Shown: positions 14,198 to 44,866 of the stretch, piece after piece
Numbering within the stretch: the stretch's first letter is position 1
Layout of the letters: every line of letters begins with the position of its first letter
Source of the DNA: a virus
Taxonomy: Duplodnaviria; Caudoviricetes
IMG/VR virus record: IMGVR_UViG_3300003635_000004
Location: 1 to 50,477 of that record
Direction: 5' to 3' (one strand)
DNA length: 50,477 nucleotides
Made by a program: the position numbers and the translations under genes
The notes under the pieces: model-generated
Databases searched by the model: none
Seen by the model: only the letters and a program-made list of their open reading frames with translations
Told to the model about the DNA's origin: nothing

Positions 14198-14208
14198 GGT
14201 GACCAGAC

Positions 14209-14604: not shown

Positions 14605-14610
14605 TGATTC

Positions 14611-31251: not shown

Positions 31252-31708
31252 CGATACACCCCCGCGCCCAGCAGCGTGAACTGCAGAAGGGCGTCTCTTG
31301 GTCGTCGTCCTCGGCGTCGTAGACGGCGCTGCGTTGTCGGATCGGATCACCGCAACACGCGCACGTCAGCCGATGCTCGACGAACTCCGGCTCGTCGACG
31401 TCAGCAACGCGAAGCCCGACTTCGGGCGCGACTGTCTTGATGAACTTCCGCATCTCCTCGTTCGAGAGCTGTAGAAGCGCGCGCCCTCGGCCACCGAACT
31501 CGAAGTCCATCGAGATCTCGGTCTTCGTGCCGAAAAACCGAGCGTCGACCTCGACTGGCGGGTCGTGATCGTACTCGACTCGGTGTTCGTGATCGACTTG
31601 GCGGCCACCCGCCTCGATACTTACGTAGCCTCGCTCGGCGTTGAGCGGCTTGTCGAAAAGATCGACACCTCGTGCGTGTGCGCCCGTTTCGAGACCTTGG
31701 TCAGCCAT
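31238..31708 (-). CDS. Hypothetical protein with C-terminal TRASH/treble-clef-like zinc finger
   Basis: CACCGDPI...FCSSRCW. Confidence 0.6.
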   Translation of the reverse strand: MADQGLETGAHARGVDLFDKPLNAERGYVSIEAGGRQVDHEHRVEYDHDPPVEVDARFFGTKTEISMDFEFGGRGRALLQLSNEEMRKFIKTVAPEVGLRVADVDEPEFVEHRLTCACCGDPIRQRSAVYDAEDDDQETPFCSSRCWARGCIDGDL

Positions 31709-32066
31709 TACTGCGCTCCCAATCTGTCTCTGGTGCGTTCTCGCCGATGCGCTGATACAGCTCTCCCAACTCGGCGGCTTCGCTGTCCATCCCGACAGAC
31801 TCGCAGTACTCGACTGCTGTGGCGATGCCATTTAGGACGTCTTCAAGCGCCGGTGTCGGTTCGCCGCGCGGATCATCAACGAGTTCCCAGAGGCCACGGG
31901 CCAGCTTTTCGACATGGCCATGTTCGCCTAGGCGCTTGAGACGCTGGTTGATATACGACGAATCCTCTCCGAGTTGCTCGCTGAGGTAGCCAGGGGACGC
32001 CCGGTCGTCTGCAAGCTCGTCGAGAATTCGCTGATCCAGGTCGTTCAGCTGTCGTGGTTCCAGCAT
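31701..32066 (-). CDS. wHTH transcriptional regulator (PhiH1 repressor-like), copy 1
   Basis: LNDLDQRILDELADDRASPGYLSEQLGEDSSYINQRLKRLGEHGHVEKLARGLWEL; start could be further upstream. Confidence 0.8.
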   Translation of the reverse strand: MLEPRQLNDLDQRILDELADDRASPGYLSEQLGEDSSYINQRLKRLGEHGHVEKLARGLWELVDDPRGEPTPALEDVLNGIATAVEYCESVGMDSEAAELGELYQRIGENAPETDWERSNG

Positions 32067-32094
32067 TAAGTGCTGATCTATGCTCACGGCACTT

Positions 32095-32170
32095 ACTTCC
32101 TTTTCAAAGCTCAAATAACCAGCGGTAAGTAAAAGCTAAGCAACTAAGCTAAAGTTAGTATTAAGTGGGT
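32095..32170. promoter_or_regulatory. Divergent promoter/operator region 1
   Basis: AT-rich island with repeated (C)TAAG and TATTAAGT TATA-like box at 32159-32166. Confidence 0.65.
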
Positions 32171-32191
32171 GGCGGATAGAGATGTACGTGT

Positions 32192-32247
32192 GAAGCGGGA
32201 CGCCTCGGAGAATCTGAGGCCGGTGCTTGCGACACCGACCCCGCTTC
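32192..32247 (+). ncRNA. Structured 5' leader RNA (three-way junction), copy 1
   Basis: P1 GAAGCGGG/CCCGCTTC, P2 GCCTCGGA/TCTGAGGC, P3 CGGTG/CACCG; begins about 25 nt after TATA. Confidence 0.6.
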
Positions 32248-32261
32248 CCAGGAAGGAAGCA

Positions 32262-32638
32262 ATGGCGACTATCACCACGAGCCGGCATGAACGTGCCGGC
32301 ATCGACGAACTGACGACGACGCCGCCGAGCGCGTCGACGACGTCCGCTATCTCGACGTGGGCGACCGCGTCCGACTGAACGACCGCGCGAAGCCCCTCAC
32401 CGTGACGGGCACCGATACTCGCACGCGGGAGACGGTCGTTGCGGGGCGCAAGGTCACCCAGCACGGCGTCGAACTCGAGGGCGACTGGGACGGCGCGCAG
32501 ACCTACGTCGTGTACAACCGCGTCGACGGCTGGCGCGGTGTCGAACTGGCGGAACAGCGCTGTCTCGAGGACGGCCCGACCGGCGAGATCACGCTGGAGC
32601 TCGTCGCGATGGCCGACAGCGAGTGGAGGGCCGAGTGA
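32262..32638 (+). CDS. Hypothetical protein, frameshifted near 32313 in this sequence
   Basis: MATITTSRHERAGIDEL then -1 frame DDAAERVDDVRYLDVGDRVRLNDRAKPLTV... Confidence 0.55.
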
Positions 32639-32730
32639 TGTTCGCGTCGGACCACGACGACGCGACGTTCTGCCCGGACTGTGCGCGCTACCGCGTCGCC
32701 TGCCGCCATCAGGACGGTGAGGACCGATGA
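32638..32730 (+). CDS. Zinc-finger microprotein (30 aa)
   Basis: MFASDHDDATFCPDCARYRVACRHQDGEDR; TGATG and ATGA overlaps. Confidence 0.5.
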   Translation: MFASDHDDATFCPDCARYRVACRHQDGEDR

Positions 32731-33047
32731 GTACGACCCGACCGATGGCGACTGCCAACGACCTCCCGCAGACGCATGTGCGGGCGCTCACGGAGCCGAT
32801 GGCGATCAACCAGGACGATCCCGACGCCTGGGGAGAGCATGAAGTCGCGGTCTACAGCGAAGATCGCCAGTACTTGGTGAACATCGAGATCGGCCACTGT
32901 GGCTGCCCGGACGTACAGTATCGGCGTCGTGAGTGCAAGCATATCGTCCGATGCAAGTACGCCCTCGGGGAGTACGACCTCCCCGAGTGGGTACAGGCGG
33001 ATCGTCTTGACGACCAACTGCGACGCCGGCTGGAGGATAATTCATGA
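32727..33047 (+). CDS. SWIM zinc-finger protein
   Basis: YLVN..CGCPD..CKHI motif. Confidence 0.8.
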   Translation: MSTTRPMATANDLPQTHVRALTEPMAINQDDPDAWGEHEVAVYSEDRQYLVNIEIGHCGCPDVQYRRRECKHIVRCKYALGEYDLPEWVQADRLDDQLRRRLEDNS

Positions 33048-33625
33048 GCGACGACACCACGACGGAAGACAGTACTGACACGCTGACGCTGATCGCCCGC
33101 GGCCCGGCCGTAATCGAGCGCGAGCGGGACGAGGGCGCCCTGTCGGTGACGGTCACCGAAGACGTCGACCTGGAGGCCACGCTCGACGTCGATCCCGACT
33201 GGATCGAGAGGCACGGTGCCGTCCGCAAGGATACCGCCCTCCTGTTGCAGAGCGATATCGCGGAACTGGTCGTCGACACACTGTCTTCGGAGGACGCGAA
33301 CAACCCGAACTACCGCGCCGGCAACGAGCGTCACAGCGAGTGGACGCTCACGCTCACCGGTCGCGTCGACGACTGGATCAACGTGGCCGTTCGGCTCGCC
33401 CAGAACCAGATCTCTGTGGGGCCGGACGCGAGGATCATCACGTCGGCCTGCCACATCATCGATGACCTCGCGGAGTTCTCTCCGGATGATAGGCCGCGTC
33501 TCGCGATGCTCGATCTCGTCGAACAGTACGACGTGAGCGACTACACGCGGGGGTGGCTTCTCGACGAGCTGTCCGGCGACGACAATCGCGACACCGGCGT
33601 CGAGGAGGTGACTGCCGATGCCTGA
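33044..33625 (+). CDS. Hypothetical acidic protein
   Basis: Operon chain with SD motif. Confidence 0.65.
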   Translation: MSDDTTTEDSTDTLTLIARGPAVIERERDEGALSVTVTEDVDLEATLDVDPDWIERHGAVRKDTALLLQSDIAELVVDTLSSEDANNPNYRAGNERHSEWTLTLTGRVDDWINVAVRLAQNQISVGPDARIITSACHIIDDLAEFSPDDRPRLAMLDLVEQYDVSDYTRGWLLDELSGDDNRDTGVEEVTADA

Positions 33626-34313
33626 GCAGGAGCCTGCACCCATCGACTTCGAGACGGGTGTGCAGTACGCTCTGCAGCAGGCGAACGATCCCGACTCCCA
33701 CACGGAACTCGACGCCCACACGTTCCACCCGAGCCAGATCGCGCGCTGCCAGCGCCGCGCCTACTGCAGCAAGCTCGGGCTTGAGGACCAGTCGGACATC
33801 CTCGGCATCTTCCAGACGGGGACGCTTATCCACGAGTTCCTCGAGGAGCACATGGCCGAGCAGTTCCCCCACGCCGAGTTCGAGACGCCGATCACGCACG
33901 CCGAGCGCGGCGTCCAGTTCACCGGCCGCGCGGACTGCTACGATCCCGAGACGGGTTCCGTCTACGACTTCAAGACGCGGAACGGCTGGTACAACTTCGA
34001 CCCGCCAACGCAACGCCATCTCGATCAGGTGTACATCTACATGGCCGCCCTCGGTGCGGACAAGGGGCAGATCGTCTACCTCTCAAAGGGCGACCTAGAG
34101 GTGCGGACCTATCCCGAAGAGGGCTTCTTCGAGTTCGACGCCGAGCGGTTCGGCACGCTCGTCGAGAAGGCTAGTCGGATCAAGCACGCTATCGAGACCG
34201 AAGGACTGCCCAGCGGGCCGGATGACATCCCGTTCGAGACGTGTGACTGCTACTTCTGCAGTCAGGAGACGCTCGTCGACGCCGACGCGTTCCCAGGTGA
34301 TCGCGATGCGTGA
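33618..34313 (+). CDS. Solo Cas4-like PD-(D/E)XK exonuclease
   Basis: PSQIARCQRR, GTLIH, GRAD, YDFKT, QVYIY, C-terminal CDCYFC (1+3 Cys Fe-S pattern). Confidence 0.85.
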   Translation: MPEQEPAPIDFETGVQYALQQANDPDSHTELDAHTFHPSQIARCQRRAYCSKLGLEDQSDILGIFQTGTLIHEFLEEHMAEQFPHAEFETPITHAERGVQFTGRADCYDPETGSVYDFKTRNGWYNFDPPTQRHLDQVYIYMAALGADKGQIVYLSKGDLEVRTYPEEGFFEFDAERFGTLVEKASRIKHAIETEGLPSGPDDIPFETCDCYFCSQETLVDADAFPGDRDA

Positions 34314-34644
34314 CCGCCTCGAAGTCACGTTCCTCGAAACGCAGTCGAACGAACGGCGCCGGCGCGTTCTCGAAACGCGGGATACCGACACGGGGACCTA
34401 CGACTACGTCGAAGGGTTCTGGAACGGCTGTACATGGGCTCCTCGCGGTCACGAGATCGTCACCGACCTGGAGATCGAGGGGACCCTGCCCGGCACCGCG
34501 ATGCTCGCCGCGCCCGACGGCGGCACCAGTCTGCAGGCGATCCGCGACCAGCTCGAACAGGCACTCGAGGACGAGACGGACACGCGCTTTCACGTTCGGC
34601 AGGCGCTGCAGTTGGTTGAGGCAGCTGAGGAGGATAGCCGATGA
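34306..34644 (+). CDS. Hypothetical protein
   Basis: SD GGTGA; ends RFHVRQALQL. Confidence 0.6.
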   Translation: MRDRLEVTFLETQSNERRRRVLETRDTDTGTYDYVEGFWNGCTWAPRGHEIVTDLEIEGTLPGTAMLAAPDGGTSLQAIRDQLEQALEDETDTRFHVRQALQLVEAAEEDSR

Positions 34645-34775
34645 CCGCGACAGCGACCTGTCCGAACGGCTGCTGGGAAGTCTCTCTCCCCAAGACAGCA
34701 ACGGAAGCAATGGTTCAGATGATGACGTGCCCCGACTGCGAGACCCGTCTTGAAGCCACGGAGGACGGCCGATGA
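34641..34775 (+). CDS. Zinc-ribbon microprotein (44 aa)
   Basis: MTATATCPNGCWEV...TCPDCETRLEATEDGR; ATGA overlaps at both ends. Confidence 0.6.
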   Translation: MTATATCPNGCWEVSLPKTATEAMVQMMTCPDCETRLEATEDGR

Positions 34776-35173
34776 ACAAGCGCCAGCGCCAGGAGTTCGA
34801 CGATCGGAAGCGCCTTCAGGACGCCGGGTGGAAGGTTCGGCAGCGCGACGCTGTCGCATTCAATAGCGGTAGTGAGAACCCGACCCACTACCTCTGTAAG
34901 GCACTCGTCGCGCAGGTGCTGAAAGCGCGTGGCTTCCGCATCGACACCGAGGTCGCAAAGGAGAGCGCGGGCGAGATCGATGTCGTCGCCTACGGGAAAG
35001 ATGATGCTCCCACGGTGATCGAGGTGGAAACCGACCCGACCGAGGCGGTCATCCAGGACAAGCTCACGCGCTACTACGAGGACGAGCCGTTTCGCGAGGT
35101 GTTTGTCATCGACCCCACGGAGATGCCCGAATCGCTTTTCGAGGCACGCAACTGGGTGAGTGAGCAGCTATGA
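34772..35173 (+). CDS. PD-(D/E)XK nuclease-like protein
   Basis: THYLCK..GFRIDTEV..EIDVVAY..VIEVET. Confidence 0.65.
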   Translation: MNKRQRQEFDDRKRLQDAGWKVRQRDAVAFNSGSENPTHYLCKALVAQVLKARGFRIDTEVAKESAGEIDVVAYGKDDAPTVIEVETDPTEAVIQDKLTRYYEDEPFREVFVIDPTEMPESLFEARNWVSEQL

Positions 35174-35358
35174 GCGGCGATGTGCTCCCTCACGAGATTC
35201 GAGCCATCTTCGCGGGCTGTCTGATCGGCTTTGCGATCGTGTGCGCCCGAAACTACCTCACCCGAGGTGGCGCCGGCATTCTTCTGGTAGGTGTCGTCAG
35301 CCTACTCGTCGGTACCGCAATCGCGACCCACGTCACGACGGAGGTGCGGGCGCTATGA
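35170..35358 (+). CDS. Small two-TM membrane protein
   Basis: Two hydrophobic segments; ATGA overlaps. Confidence 0.55.
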   Translation: MSGDVLPHEIRAIFAGCLIGFAIVCARNYLTRGGAGILLVGVVSLLVGTAIATHVTTEVRAL

Positions 35359-35840
35359 AGGTCGGCTTCAAGGAACTCCCCAACATCCCGGTCGAGAAGA
35401 TGGCGGTCATCGAGGCCGAGGAGTTCGAAATCGGCGCGTGTGTCGGCTACCGCTGCCAGCTGTGTGGCGAAGCCGATGAGACGCTCCGCCAGCTGTTCCA
35501 CAAGTCTGACTGCGATCTCGCGGGGGTGCACGGCCGACGGTTCTTCGGAGACGACGCGAATCTCGGCTCCTCGAGCGATGGCCGACTCTCCGCGGAACCC
35601 GATCCGGACAACCCGCTGTGGCTCGTCGTGAGTGGCGAAACGGATCGCGCGGACGACGTCTACAACGGGGAGGTCGTCGGGATCCTCTGCCGTTGCGGGA
35701 ATCTCGACGATGATGCCTTCGATATCGTCCACGACGAGAACTGTGAGCTTGCCGACGAACACAGCGATCTGGGGACGACCGACGTCGAGGACCTGCAGGG
35801 CATCGACGAGGCGGTCGCGGACGGCGGTCAGGCAGGGTAG
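35355..35840 (+). CDS. Hypothetical protein with two Cys/His repeats
   Basis: CQLCG..HKSDC and CRCG..HDENC. Confidence 0.65.
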   Translation: MKVGFKELPNIPVEKMAVIEAEEFEIGACVGYRCQLCGEADETLRQLFHKSDCDLAGVHGRRFFGDDANLGSSSDGRLSAEPDPDNPLWLVVSGETDRADDVYNGEVVGILCRCGNLDDDAFDIVHDENCELADEHSDLGTTDVEDLQGIDEAVADGGQAG

Positions 35841-35974
35841 CCCACCCAAACGCTTTCGTTCTTGCATATCGACCTGTCACGTGCCCGCGGGGAAGGCACG
35901 CAGTACTCCGGGCACCTAGAGCTCCACTCGCATTCTCTCACTTCGGCGCTCACAGAGAAAGATGCTGGATTCGT

Positions 35975-36017
35975 GTTACCCCACGAATCCGAATCGGCGT
36001 CTGAATTGTGGGGTAAC
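35975..36017. repeat. GTTACCCCAC-N23-GTGGGGTAAC inverted repeat, copy 1
   Basis: Direct reading; TTTCCGGAACC box follows at 36034. Confidence 0.9.
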
Positions 36018-36203
36018 TCACAACCCCACTCACTTTCCGGAACCGACCTCCCATCGTTTCCAATACTCCACACGCAGATGTTCCAGAATAGTGGGCGATT
36101 ACTTTTCTGCGTTCACGGTCGAAAGCCACTGGCTCGCCGGCGAGCCACTCCACGCAGGCGCGGTTCGGAGAAGGGGGTGCCTCCCGCGCCTGTTTTCGCA
36201 CCC

Positions 36204-36246
36204 GTTACCCCACCCGTTCGACTCCGATCCCCACTCGTGGGGTAAC
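36204..36246. repeat. GTTACCCCAC-N23-GTGGGGTAAC inverted repeat, copy 2
   Basis: Direct reading; TTTCCGGAACCCCCC at 36269 and TTTATG at 36292 upstream of orc1. Confidence 0.9.
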
Positions 36247-36321
36247 GATACTTCCCCGAAGCCCGCCCTTTCCGGAACCCCCCTCCCATCGTTTATGTTC
36301 CTCCCCGGACCACTCCGGAAT

Positions 36322-37356
36322 GTGATACTCGACCGGCAAGTCCTCGATCCCACTGTCGTGCCAGATCAGGAGCTGATCGTCCATCGCGGGCGAGAGCTCG
36401 AGGACTGCCGAGCCGCGCTCGATTTGCTCGCTGACGCACCAACGAATTCTTGCCTCGTCATTCACGGCCCGCCAGGCACGGGCAAGACGATGATCGCTCG
36501 CGAAGTACTGCGACGCCTCCGCCAGCAGAACACGCTCCGAACAGCCTACGTCGACTGTTGGGAGCACTATACCGCCAACCACGCCCTGTACGAAGTCGCA
36601 GACGCGCTCAACGCCGGCGGCATCATCCACCGCAATTCAACGCCGACACAGGAACTGACTGCGGCGCTGCAAGCCCATCCAGAGCAGCGACGAGTGGCCG
36701 TCCTCGACGAGGCCGAGATGATCATCGACGCGTCTGTGTTCCGGACGCTTCGCGACGCGCCCAAACTGGATATCGTCTGCATCGTCAACGACACGGGCGA
36801 GCTTATTGAGGAGCATCCTGACGATGTCCGCGCGGCACTCGATCTCGCGACTTCGCTGCACTTCGGTCAGTACTCTGTCCAGCAGTTGATCGCGATTCTC
36901 TCCGCTCGCGCCGAGCATGGGATTCGGGATGGCGTGGTTCGCAAGCGGGCGATCGAACGCTTCGCCGAGGCCGCTGGCGGCGACGCCCGGCTCGGGATCG
37001 CGGCACTTCGAGCTGCTGCCGAGTCAGCTGTGGAGGCCTCGCGTGACGTGATCTATCCGCAGCATGTCGAGCCCCCTGTCACGAACGCCGCACGGCGATT
37101 ACACCGGCAGACGCTGGACCGGCTTTCAGAGCACCAGGAGCAATTGTATCAGCTGATCGTCGATGCCGACGAGATCGAGCCGGGCGAGTTGTACGCTCGG
37201 TATGCCGACTCAGTCGCGGACCCGAAATCTGAGCGGACGGTGCGGACCTACCTGACGAAGATGGCTCACTACGGCCTCGTTACTGTTGAGGGCGCGAGTC
37301 GAGACCGGCGTTACACTCTGGACCGCGGGGGGTATGTCGATCCGGGCGTGGTGTGA
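36322..37356 (+). CDS. orc1/cdc6: Orc1/Cdc6 family AAA+ ATPase
   Basis: VLDPTVVP..HRGREL, Walker A GPPGTGKT, Walker B VLDEAE, GGDARLGI, C-terminal wHTH; GTG start 30 nt after TATA-like box. Confidence 0.92.
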   Translation: MILDRQVLDPTVVPDQELIVHRGRELEDCRAALDLLADAPTNSCLVIHGPPGTGKTMIAREVLRRLRQQNTLRTAYVDCWEHYTANHALYEVADALNAGGIIHRNSTPTQELTAALQAHPEQRRVAVLDEAEMIIDASVFRTLRDAPKLDIVCIVNDTGELIEEHPDDVRAALDLATSLHFGQYSVQQLIAILSARAEHGIRDGVVRKRAIERFAEAAGGDARLGIAALRAAAESAVEASRDVIYPQHVEPPVTNAARRLHRQTLDRLSEHQEQLYQLIVDADEIEPGELYARYADSVADPKSERTVRTYLTKMAHYGLVTVEGASRDRRYTLDRGGYVDPGVV

Positions 37357-38313
37357 TTAGCTACTTGACGGGGAGTACGTGTCCACAGTCTCGTCGTTTA
37401 TGATATATCGGAGTTCCATGTCCCCTGCGTTGATTGCTTGAACCTGAGACTGCGTGAGATCCGATGCCGTCGCGATTCGCCATAATACCTGCCGCTCGCT
37501 ATTTGCACGAACGGTTATCTCTTCCTCGTGGGTTGCGGCCACCTCGCCATCAATAACCAACTCAACACGCATCGTGTTCGTGATCTCGCTATCAGTCGGG
37601 TTCGTGACAGTCGCATCAGTAGAAATCGTGTTTGATGTCGCGTCCATGCCACCATCAACTTCGAGCTGTGGCTCGGCGGTGAGCAGTTCTGGACCGACAA
37701 CCACCCCAGCAGCGATCACGCCGACCACCACGATCCCTGCTGCGACATAGCGCAACGGCAGATTGATACCACCGCCCGAAGGCGCTGCGCCCCCTCCACC
37801 GAGATAAACCCCACCGAGGCCAGTGAGACCGGTCGGGAGTGCCACGGCAATAATTGGGATGATGTACTCTCCAATAGGCAAGCCACCAGAGGAGCCACCA
37901 TTTGTCGTGGTCTGGCCCGCGGCGTCGGTGGCGGCGCTGCTGCCACCACCTGCACCGCCACCAGCGACAGCTGCGACCGCGATACTCAGCGCCAGGACGA
38001 CGACGAGGATCATCACGAAGTAGCCAGCGACTGAGCCGAGTACGCCGGCGAGATATGACTCCGAGGTGCGTCCCATGCCATCACCAGTTCGAAGCCCGGA
38101 GATCAAGCCGATAATGGGGCCGAGCAAGAACGCCACCGTAAGAATCACCAGCACAAGAAGCCCGCTGAAGATGGCGCTTCCGGAACTCAGTTGCGTCATC
38201 GCGACACCACCAGTTGCCCCGATCCCGACGCCCGCAAGAGCGAATATCCCGACTACCTGACCGATAGTACTGAGTGGAACGCCAGACCCATCTGCCGTTT
38301 CGGAACCCGACAT
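37357..38313 (-). CDS. Multi-pass membrane protein with C-terminal extracellular Ig/CARDB-like domain (cargo)
   Basis: About five hydrophobic segments, DATVTNPTD beta domain; own TATA-like CTTTATCA; lower GC. Confidence 0.75.
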   Translation of the reverse strand: MSGSETADGSGVPLSTIGQVVGIFALAGVGIGATGGVAMTQLSSGSAIFSGLLVLVILTVAFLLGPIIGLISGLRTGDGMGRTSESYLAGVLGSVAGYFVMILVVVLALSIAVAAVAGGGAGGGSSAATDAAGQTTTNGGSSGGLPIGEYIIPIIAVALPTGLTGLGGVYLGGGGAAPSGGGINLPLRYVAAGIVVVGVIAAGVVVGPELLTAEPQLEVDGGMDATSNTISTDATVTNPTDSEITNTMRVELVIDGEVAATHEEEITVRANSERQVLWRIATASDLTQSQVQAINAGDMELRYIINDETVDTYSPSSS

Positions 38314-38370
38314 GGCTTGAGTGTCAAATGTGAGACTGATAAAGGCTTGCCCGTAAAGCCACGCTCTGAA

Positions 38371-38413
38371 GTTACCCCACGTATTCGAACACTAGTGCAA
38401 CTCGTGGGGTAAC
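38371..38413. repeat. GTTACCCCAC-N23-GTGGGGTAAC inverted repeat, copy 3
   Basis: Direct reading. Confidence 0.9.
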
Positions 38414-38432
38414 TAACTGGCGCCCGGCGAGT

Positions 38433-38475
38433 CTTAACCAACACCCAACTGCACCGGGCCGCTCTGTTGGTTAAC
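38433..38475. repeat. Variant inverted repeat CTTAACCAAC-N23-GTTGGTTAAC, copy 4
   Basis: Same 23-nt spacer, same two C-to-A changes mirrored in both arms; TTTCCGGAACCCCCC follows at 38490. Confidence 0.75.
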
Positions 38476-38489
38476 ACTCCTTCAGAAGC

Positions 38490-38523
38490 TTTCCGGAACC
38501 CCCCTGAAAACGACTTTTTATAT
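38490..38523 (+). promoter_or_regulatory. Promoter pointing antisense into repressor gene
   Basis: TTTCCGGAACCCCCC box, purine-rich BRE-like GAAAA, TTTTTATA; no typical sense gene downstream. Confidence 0.6.
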
Positions 38524-38552
38524 GGTGGGCGTAGCAGGATGTGATGGTCGCG

Positions 38553-38819
38553 TCACTCGGGCTCCTCGACCGGCTCAAGTGTCGAGGCGTCGAGCTCCTC
38601 GTCCAAGTAGGCGCGGCCGGCGTCAGTGATGGCGTAGAGTCCCCGAGAAATTCGTTCGACAAGGCCGTAATTGCGAAGCGAGCGAAGACGATCTTGGCAA
38701 TGGCCAGCGCTAGGCCCGCCGAAATCCTCGATCGCCTGTGGTGTCAGATTCCCATGTTCCCTCAGAAGCTCAAGTATTGGGTCATCCGAGGGAACCATCC
38801 AATCCGCACGCTTCCGCAT
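38553..38819 (-). CDS. PhiH1 repressor-like wHTH protein, copy 2
   Basis: MRKRADWMVPSDDPILELLREHGNLTP..RLRSLRNYGLVERISRGLYAITDAGRAYLDEELD. Confidence 0.88.
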   Translation of the reverse strand: MRKRADWMVPSDDPILELLREHGNLTPQAIEDFGGPSAGHCQDRLRSLRNYGLVERISRGLYAITDAGRAYLDEELDASTLEPVEEPE

Positions 38820-38869
38820 ATCGTCTTTGTCGTCCGGGGTCATGCTGATAATCGTACCCATTACCACGT

Positions 38870-38945
38870 CTTTCGGCTTTATCCACCTTAATTACTGCTT
38901 AAATCTCAGTGTTCGATGGGAAACTCTCAGTAAGGTATTTACCAC
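38870..38945. promoter_or_regulatory. Divergent promoter/operator region 2
   Basis: AT-rich; TCTCAGT twice, TTACTG/CAGTAA inverted pair, TATTTACC TATA-like at 38936-38943. Confidence 0.65.
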
Positions 38946-38965
38946 GGGCGACATAACCACTTGAC

Positions 38966-39022
38966 GACCCGGCCCTTGCGGGTAGAAGGTGCCCGCCGTG
39001 TAGGAGCACGACGGGCTGGGTC
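38966..39022 (+). ncRNA. Structured 5' leader RNA (three-way junction), copy 2
   Basis: P1 GACCCGGCCC/GGGCTGGGTC, P2 GCGGGTA/TGCCCGC, P3 CGTG/CACG; begins about 23 nt after TATA. Confidence 0.6.
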
Positions 39023-39053
39023 TACTCCCCACGAGGGAGATTTGGAACGACCC

Positions 39054-39593
39054 ATGACAGAATCTATCGAGGGTGGCAAAAAGAATACTGCCACTACGAC
39101 GGACGCATCAGGTGTTAATCAGGAGTTAGAGAGTGCATTTCCGGAGGATGTGGTCCTCCGACGTGAGGGGCAGGACTGCGAGTTCTACTACACGATCCAG
39201 AACGGCACGCTCGTCGAGCGGGCAGTGTTCGACGATGGCCATATCGGCGGCGTCTACCAAGCCGGTCACGACGTCGACCCCGAGGCCGACGACATCGACG
39301 TCCTCGATCCGGAGGCGTGGCCCACCCGCGAGGATGACTTCGACACGGGGGCGCCCGTGTTGATGACCGACGGCGGCGGCTTCGACATCACGCTCAACCG
39401 AACCTTCGTCCGCACCGACGACGGCGAAGAGAAAGGAATCTGGAAGGCGACTGTCGACAACGCGCAGGCGTACCGCGAGATGGGCGGGGAGACGGCAGCC
39501 GGCGCGCTTCACGCACTTGCCCGCGAGTTCGAAGACAAGTTCTGCGAAGGCGACGGCGAGGCAGAGGAGTTGACGCGAGGGGGTGACGCGTAG
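39054..39593 (+). CDS. Hypothetical acidic protein
   Basis: First gene after leader; contains LMTDGG linker typical of haloarchaeal mobile-element proteins. Confidence 0.65.
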   Translation: MTESIEGGKKNTATTTDASGVNQELESAFPEDVVLRREGQDCEFYYTIQNGTLVERAVFDDGHIGGVYQAGHDVDPEADDIDVLDPEAWPTREDDFDTGAPVLMTDGGGFDITLNRTFVRTDDGEEKGIWKATVDNAQAYREMGGETAAGALHALAREFEDKFCEGDGEAEELTRGGDA

Positions 39594-39861
39594 ATGCCCG
39601 AGAAGATCGTCCAGGTCGGCCTGTCCGGTTCTGGCGACGCGAAGGTCTACCACACGCAGGCGGACTGTTCGGCACTCAAGAACATCGTCGATCCCCAAGA
39701 CGTTCCGGCCGAATCACTGACTGACGAGTGGCGCGAGTGTGGCTACTGTTCGGGCGAGCACGATCAACCCCAGCGAGACGAAAAACGGGTTGCTCGAAAC
39801 AGATCCAGAAGACCTCGGACTGACGCCCATCGGAGAGCGGCGTGATGGAGGTGCGGCATGA
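39594..39861 (+). CDS. Small HxxxxC/CxxC zinc-binding protein, probably frameshifted at A-run near 39781
   Basis: [20 protein letters not shown]; +1 frame [25 protein letters not shown] overlaps PCNA ATG. Confidence 0.55.
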
Positions 39862-40607
39862 CGTTCCACGCGATCATCGCGGCGGACACGCTGGCGACGT
39901 ATGTCGACGTGCTCCGAACCATCGTCGAAGAAGCTAAACTCCACGTCGACGAGGATGGCCTGCGGACGAAGGCGGTCGACCCAGCAAATGTGGCGATGCA
40001 ATCCGTCTCGCTGGACGCCGCGGCGTTCGAGTCCTACGAGGCCGACGGCGGCGTCCTCGGGGTCAACCTCGGGCGCTTGGACGACGTGGTCGGGATGGCC
40101 AGCGCCGGCGAGCTGGTGCATCTCGAGCTCGACGAGGAGACGCGGAAATTACAGATCGCACACGGCGGGTTGAGCTACACGCTCGCGTTGATCGACCCCG
40201 ATTCAATCCGCGCCGAGCCGGACATCCCCGAACTGGACCTGTCAACACATCTCGTCCTCGAGGGGCGGCATCTCAGTCGGGGCGCGAAGGCAGCCGATCT
40301 CGTCTCGGATCACATCGAGTATCGCAGCGCCACCGACGAGACAGCCTTCATCATCGCCGCCGAGGGTGACACTGACGACACCGAGTTGGTCGTCGACCAG
40401 GAGGACCTGATCCAGGCGCAGATCCCCGAAGCCGAACACTCGCTACTCTCGCTGGATTACGTCAAGGACCTCCTGAAGCCAGTCGATGACGATGCCGAGG
40501 TCACGATCGAGTTGGGCACCGAGTTCCCGGTGAAGTGGCACTACGAGTTCGCAACGGGGCACGGGGAGGTGACGTCGATGCTCGCGCCCCGTATTCAGAG
40601 CGACTAG
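39858..40607 (+). CDS. pcn: DNA polymerase sliding clamp PCNA
   Basis: [50 protein letters not shown]; 249 aa. Confidence 0.95.
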
Positions 40608-40612
40608 TCACG

Positions 40613-41392
40613 ATGTCCCACGAAGATATCGACTTCAGGCAGTTGCTGAAGCGATACGGGTCGCTGTGGCAACTCACCGGAACGGACACGTCCAACTCCC
40701 AGCACAAGCTCCACACGGCAGAGGACTGCGATGATCTGAAGAAGAGCGAGCGAGACGCGAAAGAAATCACTCACGCGGGGCAACTACCGCTGCGACCGGA
40801 TCTCTGCAGTCGGTGTGAGGCGCGACCGTTCACGCACGGCATCGTGGTCGTCGGGCTCCCTGGTGCCGGAAAGACCGAAGGAGGGAAATTTGCGGCCGTC
40901 GCACTCAATGGCGCCCACGTCATCGAGACAGGCGGCGTCGTTCGTCGCGGCGCCGCGCAGTTTTACCAACAGGACGTCGAGGACCTCACCAGCGACCAGC
41001 TGGGTGAGTACTCGACGATGCGCCGCGAACGTGATGGCGGCGACTACGTCGCCCGCGACGTGATCGACACGCTCGAAACCGAGGCGGGTGGCGACGAATC
41101 CGCGGTCATCATCGGGATGCGGGATACCGAGGCGATTCCTGTCCTCGAGGACTATTTCGACGGCCTGCAGATCGTCTGGATCCACGCCCCGCATGACGTG
41201 CGCTTGGAGCGACTGCAGGACCGTGACCGGCAGGACGAAGCCGGATTCACGAGCGAGGACCTGCAGCGTCGGGACGGTCGCGAGTCCATGTGGGGCACGC
41301 CCGAGTGGGCGTTCCACGCCGACGTGCGGGTTCTGAACACTGGGACGCTGGATCATCTTCGCCGACGCGTCGAAACGGAGGTGCGGGGTTGA
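40613..41392 (+). CDS. Zinc-binding domain fused to nucleotide/dephospho-CoA kinase-like P-loop domain
   Basis: LHTAEDC..CSRC then VVGLPGAGKT, ETGGVVR, WIHAPHDVRLERL, ADVRVLNTGTL. Confidence 0.75.
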   Translation: MSHEDIDFRQLLKRYGSLWQLTGTDTSNSQHKLHTAEDCDDLKKSERDAKEITHAGQLPLRPDLCSRCEARPFTHGIVVVGLPGAGKTEGGKFAAVALNGAHVIETGGVVRRGAAQFYQQDVEDLTSDQLGEYSTMRRERDGGDYVARDVIDTLETEAGGDESAVIIGMRDTEAIPVLEDYFDGLQIVWIHAPHDVRLERLQDRDRQDEAGFTSEDLQRRDGRESMWGTPEWAFHADVRVLNTGTLDHLRRRVETEVRG

Positions 41393-42081
41393 TGCGAGCC
41401 GCTGTTATCGGCCTGCTGGCCGACGGTAGCGTCAACCTGGAACTCGAGTCGAAGTACAACAAGGACCTCCCAGCGATCCACGTCGAGGAGGTCCACACTC
41501 TCGACAGCGGCTCGATCTACGAGGGCACCGCCGCCGGGCGACATCACACCGAACAGCAGGTGGCGATGGTCGGAGAGGGCTTCATCACCGACGAGCGTGA
41601 GGAGACGACCGAGGAGATCGTCACCGACTTCGTCGCCGATCCGCAGGGCGGCTGGGTCGGCATCGACACCTCGAAAGCGGAATTCCTCTGGAACATCGTG
41701 CAGACCCAGACCGGATCGATGGTCGAGCGGGCGTTGATCGACGTCGATGGACTGGCCGAGCAGCTGGGTGGCGAAGAGACGGCAACCTGGCAGATCGGTT
41801 GGTCCGGTGGCGACGATCACGCTGGCAGCGTCTACCACGAGGATGCTGAGATGCACGCCGCTGAAGGCCCGCTGTCGCAGTTCGGGTTCAGCACCGAGTG
41901 GCGTGGGCGACCGATCCGTGGGACTGTGGCGGCGAGCGGCTACGTCGCGGCGTTCCACGGGCTCGAACACGCCGAGGCGTTCACGCAGTTCGTCCGAGAT
42001 GTCGTGTTGCCCCACTGCAGTCTCCCCGAATCTGAGCAACAGTTCCTCTCCGACGTGGCGGGAGGTGATGGTCATGCCTGA
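41392..42081 (+). CDS. Hypothetical protein
   Basis: TGATG coupling, acidic. Confidence 0.65.
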   Translation: MRAAVIGLLADGSVNLELESKYNKDLPAIHVEEVHTLDSGSIYEGTAAGRHHTEQQVAMVGEGFITDEREETTEEIVTDFVADPQGGWVGIDTSKAEFLWNIVQTQTGSMVERALIDVDGLAEQLGGEETATWQIGWSGGDDHAGSVYHEDAEMHAAEGPLSQFGFSTEWRGRPIRGTVAASGYVAAFHGLEHAEAFTQFVRDVVLPHCSLPESEQQFLSDVAGGDGHA

Positions 42082-42376
42082 ACAGGTGCAGGAAACGCAC
42101 CTCAATCCAGACCGCGGCCTGTGGATCCCGCCGCGGCTTCGCGAGTTCGGTCAGGGAATCGTGATCCGGACACCGCGGGAGACGATCCAACACTTTGGCG
42201 ACGGTCCGATGGATCCGTACTACGGCATGGTCGACGAGCGGTCATTCGGTCCGGCATCGGAGTTCCGCGACGCTAGGAACCCAGATCTTGCTCCCGATAA
42301 GGTCCGGATCAAGCCGTACGGAGAGAACGCAGTTGAACTCAGAGTCGACCTGCCCCAAGGCGGTGAGTCAGCATGA
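42074..42376 (+). CDS. Hypothetical protein
   Basis: SD GGAGGTGA; overlap chain. Confidence 0.6.
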   Translation: MPEQVQETHLNPDRGLWIPPRLREFGQGIVIRTPRETIQHFGDGPMDPYYGMVDERSFGPASEFRDARNPDLAPDKVRIKPYGENAVELRVDLPQGGESA

Positions 42377-42507
42377 AGGAGGCGTTCCGACAGGATCTGA
42401 AGGACGTCGTCGCGAAGCACTCGATGGACTTGTCGCCGGATGATCTGCGCGAGGCGGCCGATCGGCTCCAGAACGAGGCCGAACGCAGGGAGGACTCGGC
42501 GCTATGA
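42373..42507 (+). CDS. Hypothetical microprotein (44 aa)
   Basis: MKEAFRQDLKDVVAKHSMDLSPDDLREAADRLQNEAERREDSAL; ATGA overlaps both ends. Confidence 0.55.
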   Translation: MKEAFRQDLKDVVAKHSMDLSPDDLREAADRLQNEAERREDSAL

Positions 42508-42812
42508 GCACCGAGCAGACTCCCGATTCTCTCCGCTCGGAGTTGGAGACCGTCATCGCCCGTCACAACGACCTCGTGACCAAGGTTCCCGGCTACGTGG
42601 CCGCGATGCTCCTGCACGAGGCAGACGACATCTGCGGGAAGCACGGCGTCGAGATCGAGAGCATCGACGAGGACGGCGGCGCCGACGGCGTCTACGTCGT
42701 GCAGTTCGAGAGCAATTCCGCGTTGCTCGGTGTCTGTCGTGACCTCGATAAGCTGGACCGCCTCGAGGCAGATGTCGCGATGATCGACGATCGCATGGGA
42801 GGATCAGCATGA
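42504..42812 (+). CDS. Hypothetical protein
   Basis: Acidic, overlap chain. Confidence 0.6.
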   Translation: MSTEQTPDSLRSELETVIARHNDLVTKVPGYVAAMLLHEADDICGKHGVEIESIDEDGGADGVYVVQFESNSALLGVCRDLDKLDRLEADVAMIDDRMGGSA

Positions 42813-42898
42813 CCTGGGCGCAACGCCGGACGCTGGTCCTGCTCTGCGGGTTCGTGGTCGTCATCGTGGGCGCGTTCCTGCTGACTGGGGGGCTCTGA
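42809..42898 (+). CDS. Single-TM microprotein (29 aa)
   Basis: MTWAQRRTLVLLCGFVVVIVGAFLLTGGL; SD GGAGG. Confidence 0.5.
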   Translation: MTWAQRRTLVLLCGFVVVIVGAFLLTGGL

Positions 42899-42900
42899 GG

Positions 42901-43314
42901 ATGGCCATGTCCGAGGAGTCCTCCAGTCGTGCAAGCGGGACGAAGTACACGGTGAGCGCGCGGATGCGACACGCCGCCGAGGCCGACCTCCCCGTCCTCA
43001 CTGACCACGCCCACGACAAGTGGGATGAGCGGGTGCCGTCCGAAGCAGTCAGCGCCGAGGCCGCCCTCGAGGCGGCCACGCGGTTGACCGATCTCGCCTC
43101 GCATGGCCACTGGCGGGCTGCCGGGCGGGATCAACGTCTCCCCGACGCAGTATGGGTCTACCGCGGGATTCTCGATCAGCGGGCCTACACGGCCGCATTC
43201 GTCGAGCATTCCGGCGCGATCACGACCATCCTCCGCGCCTCAGAGATGACGCACCGCCCGATGGCCGCCTACGTCCGCACTGCGGCGCGCAGCCGGGTGA
43301 ACCATCATGAGTAG
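42901..43314 (+). CDS. Hypothetical protein (RelE/DUF4258-like pattern)
   Basis: LTDHAHDKWDERV...GAITTIL. Confidence 0.5.
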   Translation: MAMSEESSSRASGTKYTVSARMRHAAEADLPVLTDHAHDKWDERVPSEAVSAEAALEAATRLTDLASHGHWRAAGRDQRLPDAVWVYRGILDQRAYTAAFVEHSGAITTILRASEMTHRPMAAYVRTAARSRVNHHE

Positions 43315-43480
43315 TGAATCGATATCGCGAGATACGGTTGATGAGGCCCCGGTCGAGGATCGTCTCCGGGATCTGGAAGAGATACGGGAGGACCTCGAAC
43401 TCGTCGCCAATTCGGAGGCCGCGTATGCGACGTACGCGGAGTCACTGCTGTCGAAACTGGAGGCTGTTGAGGATGCGTGA
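43307..43480 (+). CDS. Small acidic protein convergent on integrase (57 aa)
   Basis: Hand translation MSSESISRDTVDEAPVEDRLRDLEEIREDLELVANSEAAYATYAESLLSKLEAVEDA. Confidence 0.55.
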   Translation: MSSESISRDTVDEAPVEDRLRDLEEIREDLELVANSEAAYATYAESLLSKLEAVEDA

Positions 43481-43481
43481 G

Positions 43482-44732
43482 TCAGTCGTCGGCTTGGAGG
43501 CGGAGGACGGCGTCGTCGCCGAGGAACCGCTCGATCCGCTGGATCGCGGCGCCGACATCTTCGGGGACACGTCGCTGGTCGCTCATCGCAGTATCGCGCT
43601 GCTCCTCAACGATCTCGGTAGCGGCGTGGGAGAGCGACTGGCCGCACCAGACACAAGCCGGTTCGTCGTGCGGCGTTTCCTTATCGCACCGCGGACAGAC
43701 GACCGGCGCGAGGTCTTCGGGGTCGTCTTCGGAGACTTCGACCCCATGTGCGCGCGCGATTTCGCGGTCGTTGGCCTCCTGAAACACAGAGACGTAGCGT
43801 GCAGCGATGTCCGAGCCACGACTCCAGCCGTGATGGTCCTCGAGGTGGTTCTGGGAGACGTTCTGGGAGGCGAGATGCGATGCCGAGGACTTCCGGAAGT
43901 TCGACGGTGTGACCGGTCGCTCGACGCCGGCATCACGGGCGCGGTCTTTCAGGATGTCTCGGATGTAGTTGTTCGACACCTGGGCGGTGCTGTCGAGACG
44001 GCACCACAGCGGGTCGTCGTGACTGTCGCCGGGGTGGAGGGACCGCCACTGGTTGACGTACGGGACCGACGGGACGAGGACGGCCGAGCGCCGGCCACGC
44101 TTCCCGTCGACGGTGACTTGCAGGCCGTAATCATGGTCGGCGAACGACCCGAGTGTCATGTCGAACAGTTCGTGAGGGCGCGGGCCGAGGTCCCACGCGA
44201 GGGCGATCAGCGCCTTGTCTCGGTAGTTGTGGCAGGCATCGAGCATCGGCTTCACGTCCGACTCCCAGCGGAGCATCTTCGCGGGGTCGGGCGCGGGGTC
44301 ATAGTTTTCAGGGTAGCCTCCTGGGACCCACGCCAGCGACTCGACGATCCCATCGGGGTCGGTGCCGATTTTCCCGAACTGGCGGAGGGCCACGCGATAG
44401 TCCTTGTTCGTCTCAGGCGAATCGTTCTTCGCGGTATTGACGTGCGCGACCAGTTGTTCGGCAGCGTCGCGATCGTCGAGGGCGTCGGAAAGACCGCCGA
44501 CCTCAACGGCGAGTGTGACCAGTCGCATGAGGTACTTCTCGTGGGACCAGACGGAGCAGTACGAACTCCCGAGAAGTCGGATCTGGTCACTCATCGCCAA
44601 GAGCGCCTCGGCGTCGGCGCCGCTGATGCGTGGGTCGGGGACCTCGTCGACGTCCTCGACGTCGTCGATAGCACCCTCGTCGCCGAGGCGAGCGCGCAAC
44701 CGTGTGATGCTTTGGTCGGGCTGATCGGTCAT
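43482..44732 (-). CDS. int: Tyrosine integrase, SNJ2-like, with C-terminal zinc ribbon
   Basis: LGPRPHEL, DGKRGRR, PSNFRKSSAS, HHGWSRGS, ARYV; CPRC..CVWC. Confidence 0.92.
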   Translation of the reverse strand: MTDQPDQSITRLRARLGDEGAIDDVEDVDEVPDPRISGADAEALLAMSDQIRLLGSSYCSVWSHEKYLMRLVTLAVEVGGLSDALDDRDAAEQLVAHVNTAKNDSPETNKDYRVALRQFGKIGTDPDGIVESLAWVPGGYPENYDPAPDPAKMLRWESDVKPMLDACHNYRDKALIALAWDLGPRPHELFDMTLGSFADHDYGLQVTVDGKRGRRSAVLVPSVPYVNQWRSLHPGDSHDDPLWCRLDSTAQVSNNYIRDILKDRARDAGVERPVTPSNFRKSSASHLASQNVSQNHLEDHHGWSRGSDIAARYVSVFQEANDREIARAHGVEVSEDDPEDLAPVVCPRCDKETPHDEPACVWCGQSLSHAATEIVEEQRDTAMSDQRRVPEDVGAAIQRIERFLGDDAVLRLQADD

Positions 44733-44769
44733 CCACGCCGACCCACTCAGTCGGGGCATGTAAACATCT

Positions 44770-44792
44770 GGTTCGGAGCCCACCCCGGGCAC
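44770..44792 (+). other. attP core matching the 3' end (T-loop to acceptor) of a tRNA, probably haloarchaeal elongator tRNA-Met
   Basis: GGTTCGGAGCCCACCCCGGGCAC directly upstream of int; tRNA identity recalled from memory, not searched. Confidence 0.75.
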
Positions 44793-44866
44793 TCATCAAA
44801 TTGTTGTCATGCCCACGTAAAAAGGCAGAGTGGTGACGCCCACTCGCCCGCGGGGGGTGCGTTGGC

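What the first reader, a model, noticed from the sequence alone, without database searches (positions are those of the whole stretch)
32192..39022. Conserved three-way-junction RNA leader at the start of both early operons (32192-32247 and 38966-39022)
The two elements share little sequence but have the same fold and linkers: P1 (8 or 10 bp), 2-nt linker, P2 (8 or 7 bp, loop starting GAA), zero linker, P3 (CGGTG-CTTGCGA-CACCG or CGTG-TAGGAG-CACG), an identical AC linker, then P1 3'. The P1 and P2 stems differ almost entirely while pairing is kept (mismatches are G-U), and each starts at the predicted transcription start before a long operon. This looks like a cis-acting RNA family that I cannot name. 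Possible roles (inference): an archaeal antitermination signal analogous to HK022 put or lambda nut, a tRNA-like processing signal through the T-loop-like P3, or an antisense target analogous to P1 c4 sites.
Basis: partly seen in the sequence, partly recalled or inferred. Interest (0 to 1): 0.8.

Follow-up and report, generated by a model that had tools for sequence, protein, structure and literature searches.

The report
Structured leader RNA of halovirus operons
Both elements are real copies of an undescribed, widespread three-stem RNA that sits at the very start of the repressor-controlled early transcripts of salt-loving archaeal viruses and plasmids, and it probably acts as a fold-switching leader that controls the first gene.

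Summary
Observation confirmed. Both stretches fold as the three-way junctions described (z about -5). They lie 24-27 nt after a TATA box, opposite a small repressor-like gene, before replication operons of a temperate haloarchaeal siphovirus.

Neither is in Rfam or tRNA-like.

el1 belongs to a large family. A model built from three viral copies hits 50 of 151 sampled Halobacteria genomes. In 30 copies, 95% of cells pair and 18 of 21 pairs change on both sides.

el2 is a rarer sister class, with 9 copies seen. The el1-class model misses el2 itself (13.4 bits, E 0.77). It does find the el2-class copies of virus BJ1 and of L002.

Copies also lie in PhiCh1 and phiH1. In phiH1 the mapped start of early lytic transcript T4 is the first base of P1.

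New: the five bases at the 5' end recur just before the start codon. The 3' strand of P1 can therefore pair with either copy. This second hairpin covaries, and the two folds are nearly equal in energy in the el1 class.

Best reading: a bistable leader that gates translation or processing. Antitermination, tRNA-like and antisense-target readings gain no support.

The parts
32155..32166 (+). AT-rich TATA-box-like motif of the el1 promoter; its 3' end lies about 25 nt before P1
   Evidence: Read. The same spacing is seen in 31 of 33 family copies.
32192..32247 (+). el1, a three-way-junction leader of the GAAGC class. P1 32192-32199 with 32240-32247. P2 32202-32209 with 32213-32220. P3 32221-32225 with 32233-32237. 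AC linker 32238-32239.
   Evidence: Fold. Model scores 91.8, 83.8 and 75.1 bits. Family covariation.
32243..32260 (+). Alternative hairpin HP4. The P1 3' strand plus one base (32243-32248) pairs with 32255-32260, which holds the second copy of the 5' pentamer GAAGC (32256-32260), two bases before the ATG at 32262.
   Evidence: The constrained fold of state II is only 1.9 kcal/mol above state I.
32262..32638 (+). First gene of operon 1. An ATG ORF at 32262-32378 runs into the 93-aa ORF at 32357-32638 in another frame. Homologues (P0005-P0008) are one continuous protein.
31701..32066 (-). Divergent winged-helix regulator gene beside el1 (start taken at the ATG at 32066)
   Evidence: Pfam HTH_24, E 1.1e-4.
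38934..38942 (+). TATA-box-like motif of the el2 promoter, 24 nt before P1
   Evidence: Read. Same spacing in L002 and in the genomic copies.
38966..39022 (+). el2, a three-way-junction leader of the GACCC class. P1 38966-38975 with 39013-39022. P2 38978-38984 with 38990-38996. P3 38997-39000 with 39007-39010. AC linker 39011-39012.
   Evidence: Fold. Homologues with stem-preserving changes.
39025..39039 (+). Conserved spacer hairpin (5 bp, 5-nt loop), followed by AUUU
   Evidence: Fold. Kept, with changed loop or stem, in all 9 copies of the class.
39049..39053 (+). Second copy of the 5' pentamer GACCC, directly before the ATG at 39054
   Evidence: Same in L002, BJ1 and 5 of 6 genomic copies.
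38553..38867 (-). Divergent winged-helix regulator-like gene beside el2
   Evidence: Weak matches below the curated cut-offs: Mrr_N, AbiEi_4, HVO_A0261_N, TrmB.
39054..39593 (+). First gene of operon 2 (179 aa, no family). It is followed by a zinc-ribbon-like ORF and a PCNA gene at 39858-40607.

Best explanation
el1 and el2 are two copies, from two sequence classes, of one family of structured 5' leader RNAs. The RNA begins at, or within a base or two of, the transcription start of the repressor-controlled early operon of temperate haloarchaeal viruses, proviruses and plasmids. This is the 'T4-type' transcript of phage phiH.

The leader folds into a three-way junction whose closing helix P1 uses the first bases of the transcript. 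The 3' strand of P1 (X') is also complementary to a second copy of the 5' pentamer (X) placed just before the start codon. The RNA can therefore adopt two folds:
- State I: P1 closed, 5' end paired, start-codon region open.
- State II: X' paired with the pre-AUG copy, giving a hairpin that abuts the AUG and a free 5' end.

Inferred mechanism: the junction acts as the sensing or stabilising part. Whatever holds or opens P1 (a host or viral protein, a small ligand, 5' trimming or the ribosome) sets how well the first gene is translated, and perhaps how long the 5' end survives or whether the leader is clipped off.

Shown: the fold, its conservation and covariation, its place at +1, and the alternative hairpin.

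Inferred: that the RNA switches, and what the switch does.
For: Fold. Both elements fold as three-way junctions, z about -5, with 0 of 200 shuffles as good.

Family size. Model R2, built from 3 viral copies, matches 50 of 151 sampled Halobacteria genomes at E<=0.05, and 29 of them below 1e-3. Of the 30 loci fetched, 29 show an upstream TATA-like motif and an ATG 10-18 nt after the element. One locus (L274) looks false.

Covariation in 30 copies:
- 95.4% of 591 cells are paired.
- 18 of 21 pairs change on both sides.
- 0 of 500 shuffles reach the observed values.
- Slid controls give 35-44% paired.

Strand. G-U pairs number 25 against 7 A-C.

el2 class. 9 copies all give the same fold plus a spacer hairpin.

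Link between the classes. R3, built from el1-class copies only, finds the el2-class copy of BJ1 (30.4 bits, E 4.9e-5) and of L002 (22.1 bits, E 0.004).

Start site. The AT-rich box ends 23-31 nt upstream in 31 of 33 copies. In the phiH1 record the mapped T4 start (34556) is the first base of a 16-bp P1; the fold has z -6.3.

Alternative hairpin in 30 el1-class copies:
- X' pairs 5 of 5 with the pre-AUG pentamer in 25 of 30 copies.
- The next position is paired in 25 of 29, against a shuffle mean of 11.8; 0 of 2000 shuffles reach the observed count. Pair types are G-C, C-G and U-A.
- In L277 and L276/L280 the pre-AUG motif follows a change in X' where the 5' copy does not.

Energies. State II minus state I averages +1.5 kcal/mol over the 30 leaders folded, which include the two el2-class ones. 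It is within 2.5 kcal/mol in 19 of 30.
Against: - No RNA data exist for this virus.
- In the el2 class, state II is 7-8 kcal/mol worse than state I, so a switch there is doubtful unless a factor helps.
- In phiH1 and PhiCh1 the second copy of X lies about 100 nt after the start and not next to the ATG.
- Energies are for 37 C and standard salt, not for haloarchaeal cytoplasm.
- The alignment behind one search was fitted to the model, which favours pairing.
- The first genes after the leader differ between copies, so a gene-specific autoregulator is unlikely, and no effector is identified.
- el2 itself is not significant under the el1-class model (13.4 bits, E 0.77). 4 of the 9 el2-class copies get no hit at E<=1.
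Confidence: 0.5

Rival explanations
1. Processing signal. The structured leader marks the primary transcript for cleavage just upstream of the start codon. The mature mRNA then has a very short leader of the kind haloarchaeal ribosomes prefer. The repeated pentamer gives the processed RNA the same 5' end as the primary one.
For: The phiH1 record lists a second early 5' end, T5, only 8 nt before the ATG of the first gene, 166 nt after the T4 start. No clear AT-rich box lies about 27 nt before it (read). In the compact copies the second pentamer sits 0-2 nt before the ATG. A duplex-dependent RNase activity in Halobacterium is in the title of a paper cited in PMC6210493 (reference list seen; paper not read).
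Against: T5 is annotated as a transcription start, not as a processed end. No cleavage motif is known. Bulge-helix-bulge geometry is not present in either fold, by my reading.
Confidence: 0.2
2. Passive 5' stabiliser. A fully paired 5' end simply protects early viral transcripts from 5'-end-dependent decay, with no switching.
For: P1 starts at +1 in every copy examined. State I is the MFE in most copies.
Against: A plain hairpin would do the job. The conserved junction, the conserved P3 sequence, the AGAA loop and the covarying second hairpin are not explained.
Confidence: 0.12
3. Riboswitch-like or protein-binding sensor. The junction binds a host metabolite or a conserved host or viral protein and so couples early gene expression to cell state.
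For: The layout matches that of translational riboswitches: a junction closed by P1 whose 3' strand is shared with a helix at the start codon. The bases around the junction and P3 are the most conserved part.
Against: The junction strands are short (0-5 nt). P2 and the loops vary, and no consistent loop-loop pairing was seen. No ligand or protein is indicated by any search.
Confidence: 0.1
4. Antitermination signal of the put or nut kind, acting on RNA polymerase.
For: One copy sits at the start of each of two early operons, as with put of HK022 (recalled). The el2 class has a hairpin followed by U3 after the junction.
Against: No run of 5 or more T on the coding strand in 32248-37400 or 39023-43500. 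U3 is short for archaeal termination (recalled). The tight link to the start codon is not expected of such a signal.
Confidence: 0.04
5. Not an RNA. Either it is a DNA palindrome bound by the neighbouring repressor, or it is part of the coding sequence, since some gene callers read through el1.
For: Inverted repeats next to a repressor gene. Proteins P0006-P0008 in public sets begin inside or before el1.
Against: P2 and P3 change sequence while keeping self-complementarity. G-U outnumbers A-C 25 to 7. Separate direct repeats, likelier operators, lie upstream of the TATA box in L216. The distance from the 5' end to the ATG is 0, 1 or 2 mod 3 in 14, 10 and 9 of 33 copies. The gene after the leader differs between copies.
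Confidence: 0.04

Closest known systems
5' region of early lytic transcript T4 of Halobacterium phage phiH (L region, opposite repR), and the ORF48-ORF49 intergenic region of Natrialba phage PhiCh1
   Same: Homologous locus. R3 matches phiH1 at 34564-34630 (26.1 bits) and PhiCh1 at 34054-34113 (28.7 bits), each between the repressor gene and the replication operon. The mapped T4 start is the first base of P1.
   Different: Those leaders are longer: 174 nt to the ATG in phiH1 against 70-88 nt here. Their second pentamer is not next to the ATG. I found no description of the RNA fold in the text I could search. The original phiH papers are not held.
Translational riboswitches, for example the add adenine switch (recalled)
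   Same: A three-way junction closed by P1. The P1 3' strand is shared with an alternative helix at the start codon.
   Different: No ligand is known and no Rfam match was found. The junction strands are much shorter. The setting is an archaeal virus, and the RNA starts exactly at +1.
Cloverleaf leader of the phage MS2 maturation gene (recalled)
   Same: A multi-stem 5' leader of a virus in which pairing of the extreme 5' end decides access to the start site.
   Different: In MS2 the 5' end pairs with the ribosome-binding site itself and the control is kinetic. Here the 5' end competes with the pre-AUG copy for a shared strand.
put RNAs of phage HK022 and nut of lambda (recalled)
   Same: Paired cis-acting RNA elements near the start of both early operons.
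   Different: Put is two successive stem-loops acting on bacterial RNA polymerase. No terminators are seen downstream here.
Intergenic repeats of halovirus HF2 (PMC8707807; passages read)
   Same: Repeated intergenic elements at the start of halovirus transcripts.
   Different: The HF2 repeats are AT-rich promoter DNA of 29 or 58 bp. The passages read describe no RNA junction.

Membership tests
Any Rfam 15 family | Score at or above the family's gathering threshold, or at least E<=10 | tested here: not met
   0 matches in the whole window at gathering scores. In 31900-39300 at E<=10 there are 2 weak matches, neither at the elements.
tRNA or tRNA-like element | Cloverleaf or acceptor/T-arm mimic with a conserved T-loop | tested here: not met
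   ARAGORN finds none. No tRNA-clan hit at E<=10. P3 loops differ in length and sequence between copies. A 2-nt linker separates P3 from P1.
Haloarchaeal T4-type three-way-junction leader (family defined here), el1 | Significant score to a covariance model built without the copy's own class being excluded | tested here: met
   el1 scores 75.1 bits, E 4.5e-15, under R3. Note that el1 is among the 30 seed sequences. Independent copies score 29-52 bits under R2.
Haloarchaeal T4-type three-way-junction leader, el2 | Significant score to the el1-class model | tested here: inconclusive
   el2 scores 13.4 bits, E 0.77 in the window. Its near-twin L002 scores 22.1 bits (E 0.004) and the same-class BJ1 copy 30.4 bits (E 4.9e-5). 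4 of the 9 class copies get no hit at E<=1.
Haloarchaeal T4-type three-way-junction leader, both elements | First base 23-31 nt after a TATA-like box, opposite a small regulator gene | tested here: met
Haloarchaeal T4-type three-way-junction leader, both elements | The 5' pentamer is repeated 0-2 nt before the start codon and is complementary to the P1 3' strand | tested here: met
   el1 has GAAGC at 32192 and 32256. el2 has GACCC at 38966 and 39049.
Riboswitch | Specific ligand binding by a conserved aptamer core | not testable with these tools
   Only the layout (P1 shared with a start-codon helix) could be checked.
put or nut antitermination RNA | Terminators downstream whose read-through depends on the element | tested here: not met
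   No T5+ run on the coding strand of either operon.

The most novel reading that the evidence does not exclude
The junction is a structure-based signal that lets haloarchaeal ribosomes start on a leadered mRNA without a Shine-Dalgarno sequence, or it is a true sensor (a riboswitch or a binding site for a host factor). In the el1 class the junction sits 10-18 nt before the AUG, and I note (my own idea, not tested) that this is about the length of mRNA a small ribosomal subunit would cover upstream of the start codon. Flipping between the two folds would then turn the early or replication operon of temperate haloviruses on or off according to host state. That would add an RNA layer to the lysis-lysogeny decision in Archaea.
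Probability: 0.15. Interest if true: 0.95.

Novelty: new variant of a known kind. Interest (0 to 1): 0.8.

Why it matters
Structured cis-regulatory RNAs are hardly known in Archaea, and none is described for archaeal viruses in what I could search.

This family is common. It is in about a fifth to a third of the sampled Halobacteria genomes. It sits at the key regulatory node of temperate haloviruses, directly after the repressor-controlled promoter.

It is also present in cultured, genetically tractable systems: phiH, PhiCh1, BJ1 and a Halorubrum lacusprofundi virus. Its function can therefore be tested directly.

Its two-state design bears on an open question: how haloarchaea translate leadered mRNAs that lack Shine-Dalgarno sequences.

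It also corrects gene calls that read through the element.

Tried and rejected
Relatives by protein.
- Single-protein scans of viral contigs with the first genes of both operons found none.
- tblastn of the 179-aa protein against phage records found none.
- The regulator protein found no relative in genome contigs.

Relatives by DNA.
- megablast and blastn of the region and of both leaders against phage records gave only chance hits.
- Exact patterns for el2 in viral contigs gave 0.
- A loose pattern for the el1 3' end gave 116 or more mostly chance loci, of which only L020 was new and real.
- A pattern in genome contigs gave 120 loci, of which one (L216) was real.

MAFFT could not align el1 with el2 by structure. 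Alignments were therefore made through cmsearch.

Alignments A3, A4 and A7 held reverse-strand or junk rows and were not used for models. For the G003 copy the model prefers the wrong strand (43.8 against 31.7 bits). Its orientation was set from the TATA box and ATG, and it was left out of the R3 seed, as were L274 (no TATA or ATG), L279 and L282 (the latter two look like repeats of L278 and L276).

Sequencing runs. No RNA holder is listed. Four DNA runs kept as contigs were laid. They give no start sites and no listed differences inside the elements. Contig pieces end at 32225, 32198/32196 and 39022. I do not use this as evidence.

The loop-loop pairing idea (P2 AGAA with the P3 loop) was checked by eye and is not consistent.

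I saw no hammerhead, k-turn or bulge-helix-bulge motif (by eye, with motifs recalled), and Rfam gave no hit.

Of 9 blastn loci for el2 that I read, 3 (L289, L290, L291) are partial matches in coding-like DNA and were dropped.

Literature searches found no description of this RNA. The early phiH papers and PMC207211 are not held, and supplements are closed, so an older mention cannot be excluded.

Full report
THE OBSERVATION. Reading the window shows both elements exactly as described. el1 (32192-32247) has P1 of 8 bp, linker AC, P2 of 8 bp with loop GAA, no linker, P3 of 5 bp with a 7-nt loop, linker AC, then the P1 3' strand. el2 (38966-39022) has P1 of 10 bp, linker UU, P2 of 7 bp with loop GAAGG, P3 of 4-5 bp, linker AC, then the P1 3' strand. 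RNAfold gives these junctions as both MFE and centroid: -31.9 and -37.2 kcal/mol, z -4.99 and -4.91, with 0 of 200 shuffles as good. The reverse strands fold less well, and for el2 into a different shape.

CHANCE. A strict descriptor of the shape finds 4 places in the window (both strands) against a mean of 0.03 in 30 dinucleotide shuffles. A loose one finds 10 against 3.6 +/- 1.5. The descriptor was written after the fact. One extra hit, 20494-20549, lies inside a coding gene and has z of only -2.15. The fourth hit, 32232-32288 on the minus strand, is the mirror of the second hairpin described below. Shape alone is therefore not rare enough. Position and conservation carry the case.

SETTING. 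The window is a whole IMG/VR virus record of 50,477 bases, estimated 92% complete. Its terminase is 58% identical to those of Halorubrum viruses CGphi46 and BJ1, and it carries an integrase at 43482-44792. Each element lies in a divergent intergenic region. On the minus strand is a small winged-helix regulator gene: 31701-32066, matching HTH_24, and 38553-38867, with weak winged-helix matches. On the plus strand is an operon. Operon 1 holds small proteins, a SWIM zinc-finger protein, a PD-(D/E)XK nuclease and an Orc1/Cdc6-like ATPase. Operon 2 holds a 179-aa protein, a zinc-ribbon-like ORF and PCNA. Calling them early or replication operons is reasonable.

NOT A KNOWN FAMILY. Rfam 15 gives no match at gathering scores in the window. 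At E<=10 it gives nothing at the elements. ARAGORN finds no tRNA.

el1 BELONGS TO A LARGE FAMILY.
- An exact pattern from P3 found two complete virus records, G001 and G002. Their copy has the same P1 and P3 but a fully different, still paired P2, and it precedes a different gene.
- G002 holds a second copy with the same P1 but different P2 and P3.
- G003 and a Salinibaculum litoreum chromosome hold further variants.
- Model R2, built from three viral copies, matched 50 of 151 sampled Halobacteria genomes at E<=0.05, 29 of them below 1e-3, with up to four copies per genome.
- Of the 30 loci fetched, 29 show an AT-rich box upstream and an ATG shortly downstream. One (L274) does not, and I take it as false.
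- An alignment of 30 copies gives 95.4% of 591 cells paired, 18 of 21 pairs with changes on both sides and 0 of 500 shuffles as high. Slid controls drop to 35-44% paired. This alignment was fitted to the model, which favours pairing.
- P3 and the bases around the junction are the best conserved part. P2 varies freely, but its tip holds AGAA in most of the copies I read.
- In a phylum-wide draw, R3 matched 7 of 151 genomes. All 7 carry handles already seen in the class draw. None of the listed new handles (G405 and up) matched.

el2 IS A SISTER CLASS. The metagenome contig L002 carries a near-twin. It differs only in loops and in one G-U to G-C change, while the promoter upstream has diverged. 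blastn of the el2 leader against 401 Halobacteria genomes gave six real copies among the nine loci I read. The cultured virus BJ1 has another, between ORF20 (repressor-like) and ORF21. All nine fold into the same junction, followed by a conserved hairpin and AUUU. They show compensated changes in P1, P2 and P3.

HOW THE TWO CLASSES RELATE BY SEQUENCE. Models built from el1 alone or from three copies do not see el2 at E<=10. The 30-copy model R3 aligns el2 end to end, but at 13.4 bits and E 0.77. R3 does detect BJ1 (30.4 bits, E 4.9e-5) and L002 (22.1 bits, E 0.004). Three more copies are weak and four are not reported at E<=1. I read this as one family with two classes, shown by architecture and partly bridged by sequence.

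START OF THE TRANSCRIPT. The AT-rich box ends 23-31 nt before the first base of P1 in 31 of 33 copies. R3 also finds copies in PhiCh1 (between ORF48, the repressor, and ORF49), in a Halorubrum lacusprofundi virus, and in phiH1. It finds nothing in HRTV-4 and only a 14.7-bit match (E 0.3) in CGphi46. The phiH1 record annotates mapped starts for T6 (repR), T4 (early lytic) and T5. The T4 start at 34556 is the first base of a 16-bp P1, and the fold from that base has z -6.3.

A SECOND, COMPETING HAIRPIN.
- The five bases at the 5' end (X: GAAGC in el1, GACCC in el2) recur 0-2 nt before the start codon in 23 of 33 copies. Most of the others carry a variant that still pairs with the P1 3' strand X'.
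- In 30 el1-class copies, X' pairs 5 of 5 with the pre-AUG pentamer in 25.
- The next position out is paired in 25 of 29, against a shuffle mean of 11.8, with 0 of 2000 shuffles reaching the observed count. Three pair types occur there. The position after that is paired in 15 of 23, with 5 of 2000 shuffles reaching it.
- Where X' has changed (L277, L276/L280), the pre-AUG copy has changed with it while the 5' copy has not.
- X' therefore has two partners. Constrained folds of 30 leaders (28 el1-class, 2 el2-class) put the two states within 2.5 kcal/mol in 19 of 30, with a mean of +1.5 in favour of the closed junction. In the two el2-class leaders the closed junction wins by 7-8 kcal/mol.

NOT CODING, NOT AN OPERATOR. 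Public gene calls P0006-P0008 read through el1. However, the distance from the 5' end to the ATG is 0, 1 or 2 mod 3 in 14, 10 and 9 of 33 copies, and the gene behind the leader differs between copies. G-U pairs outnumber A-C by 25 to 7. Likely operator repeats lie upstream of the TATA box in L216.

MECHANISM. I commit to a bistable leader. The junction with a closed P1 keeps the start region open and the 5' end paired. The alternative hairpin abuts the AUG and frees the 5' end. What sets the balance is unknown. Rivals are:
- a processing signal, since T5 in phiH1 starts 8 nt before the ATG;
- a plain 5' stabiliser;
- a ligand or protein sensor;
- antitermination, which is weakened by the absence of T5+ runs in both operons.
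Only the fold, its conservation, its position and the competing hairpin are shown. The switching itself is inference.

NOVELTY AND LIMITS. Five literature searches, with passages of PMC8707807 and PMC6210493 read, gave no description of this RNA. The early phiH papers are not held and supplements are closed. No RNA run holds this virus.

Noticed in passing
window 32262-32638: The first gene of operon 1 looks frameshifted. The ATG ORF (32262-32378) and the 93-aa ORF (32357-32638) are in different frames, while homologues P0005-P0008 are single proteins of 124-157 aa. This is either an assembly error or a real shift.
   Followed up: partly
window 20494-20549 (+): A three-way junction of the same dimensions lies inside a coding gene (z -2.15). 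It is probably chance and shows that the shape alone is not diagnostic.
   Followed up: partly
L216:5480-5570 (Salinibaculum litoreum chromosome): Three direct repeats of about 18-20 nt (core ATGCACCAGTGC) lie between the regulator gene and the TATA box, the last one overlapping it. They are likely repressor operators.
   Followed up: no
L328 (phiH1 MK002701.1) 34722: The annotated T5 start is only 8 nt before the ATG of PhiH1_275 and has no obvious TATA box about 27 nt upstream. It may be a processed end of T4.
   Followed up: partly
L326 (PhiCh1 NC_004084.1) about 34210-34480: An unannotated ORF starts at an ATG about 95 nt after the leader, upstream of the annotated ORF49. Its first residues resemble those of PhiH1_275.
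   Followed up: no
loci L258, L260, L263, L267, L255, L284, L265 and G003: Many first genes behind the leader encode small proteins sharing a motif like Y-x-G-x-D-x-x-G-x-x-H-H with no Pfam family. SWIM zinc-finger genes follow in several operons, as at window 32727-33047.
   Followed up: partly
el2-class promoters (window 38925-38942; L002, L286, L294): A conserved TCAGTAA or TCAGAAA motif lies directly upstream of the TATA box in several el2-class copies.
   Followed up: no
window 43482-47428: A third divergent region of only 74 nt lies between an integrase gene and an 853-aa MarR/HTH protein gene. It has no room for such a leader.
   Followed up: no
G002:C1:14067-14923 (-): The second leader copy of G002 stands upstream of an ORF (14067-14786) whose first residues looked integrase-like to me (not tested), near a ParA-like gene. 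The leader may therefore not be tied to replication operons only. G001, a close relative, showed no such copy in my pattern or descriptor scans.
   Followed up: partly
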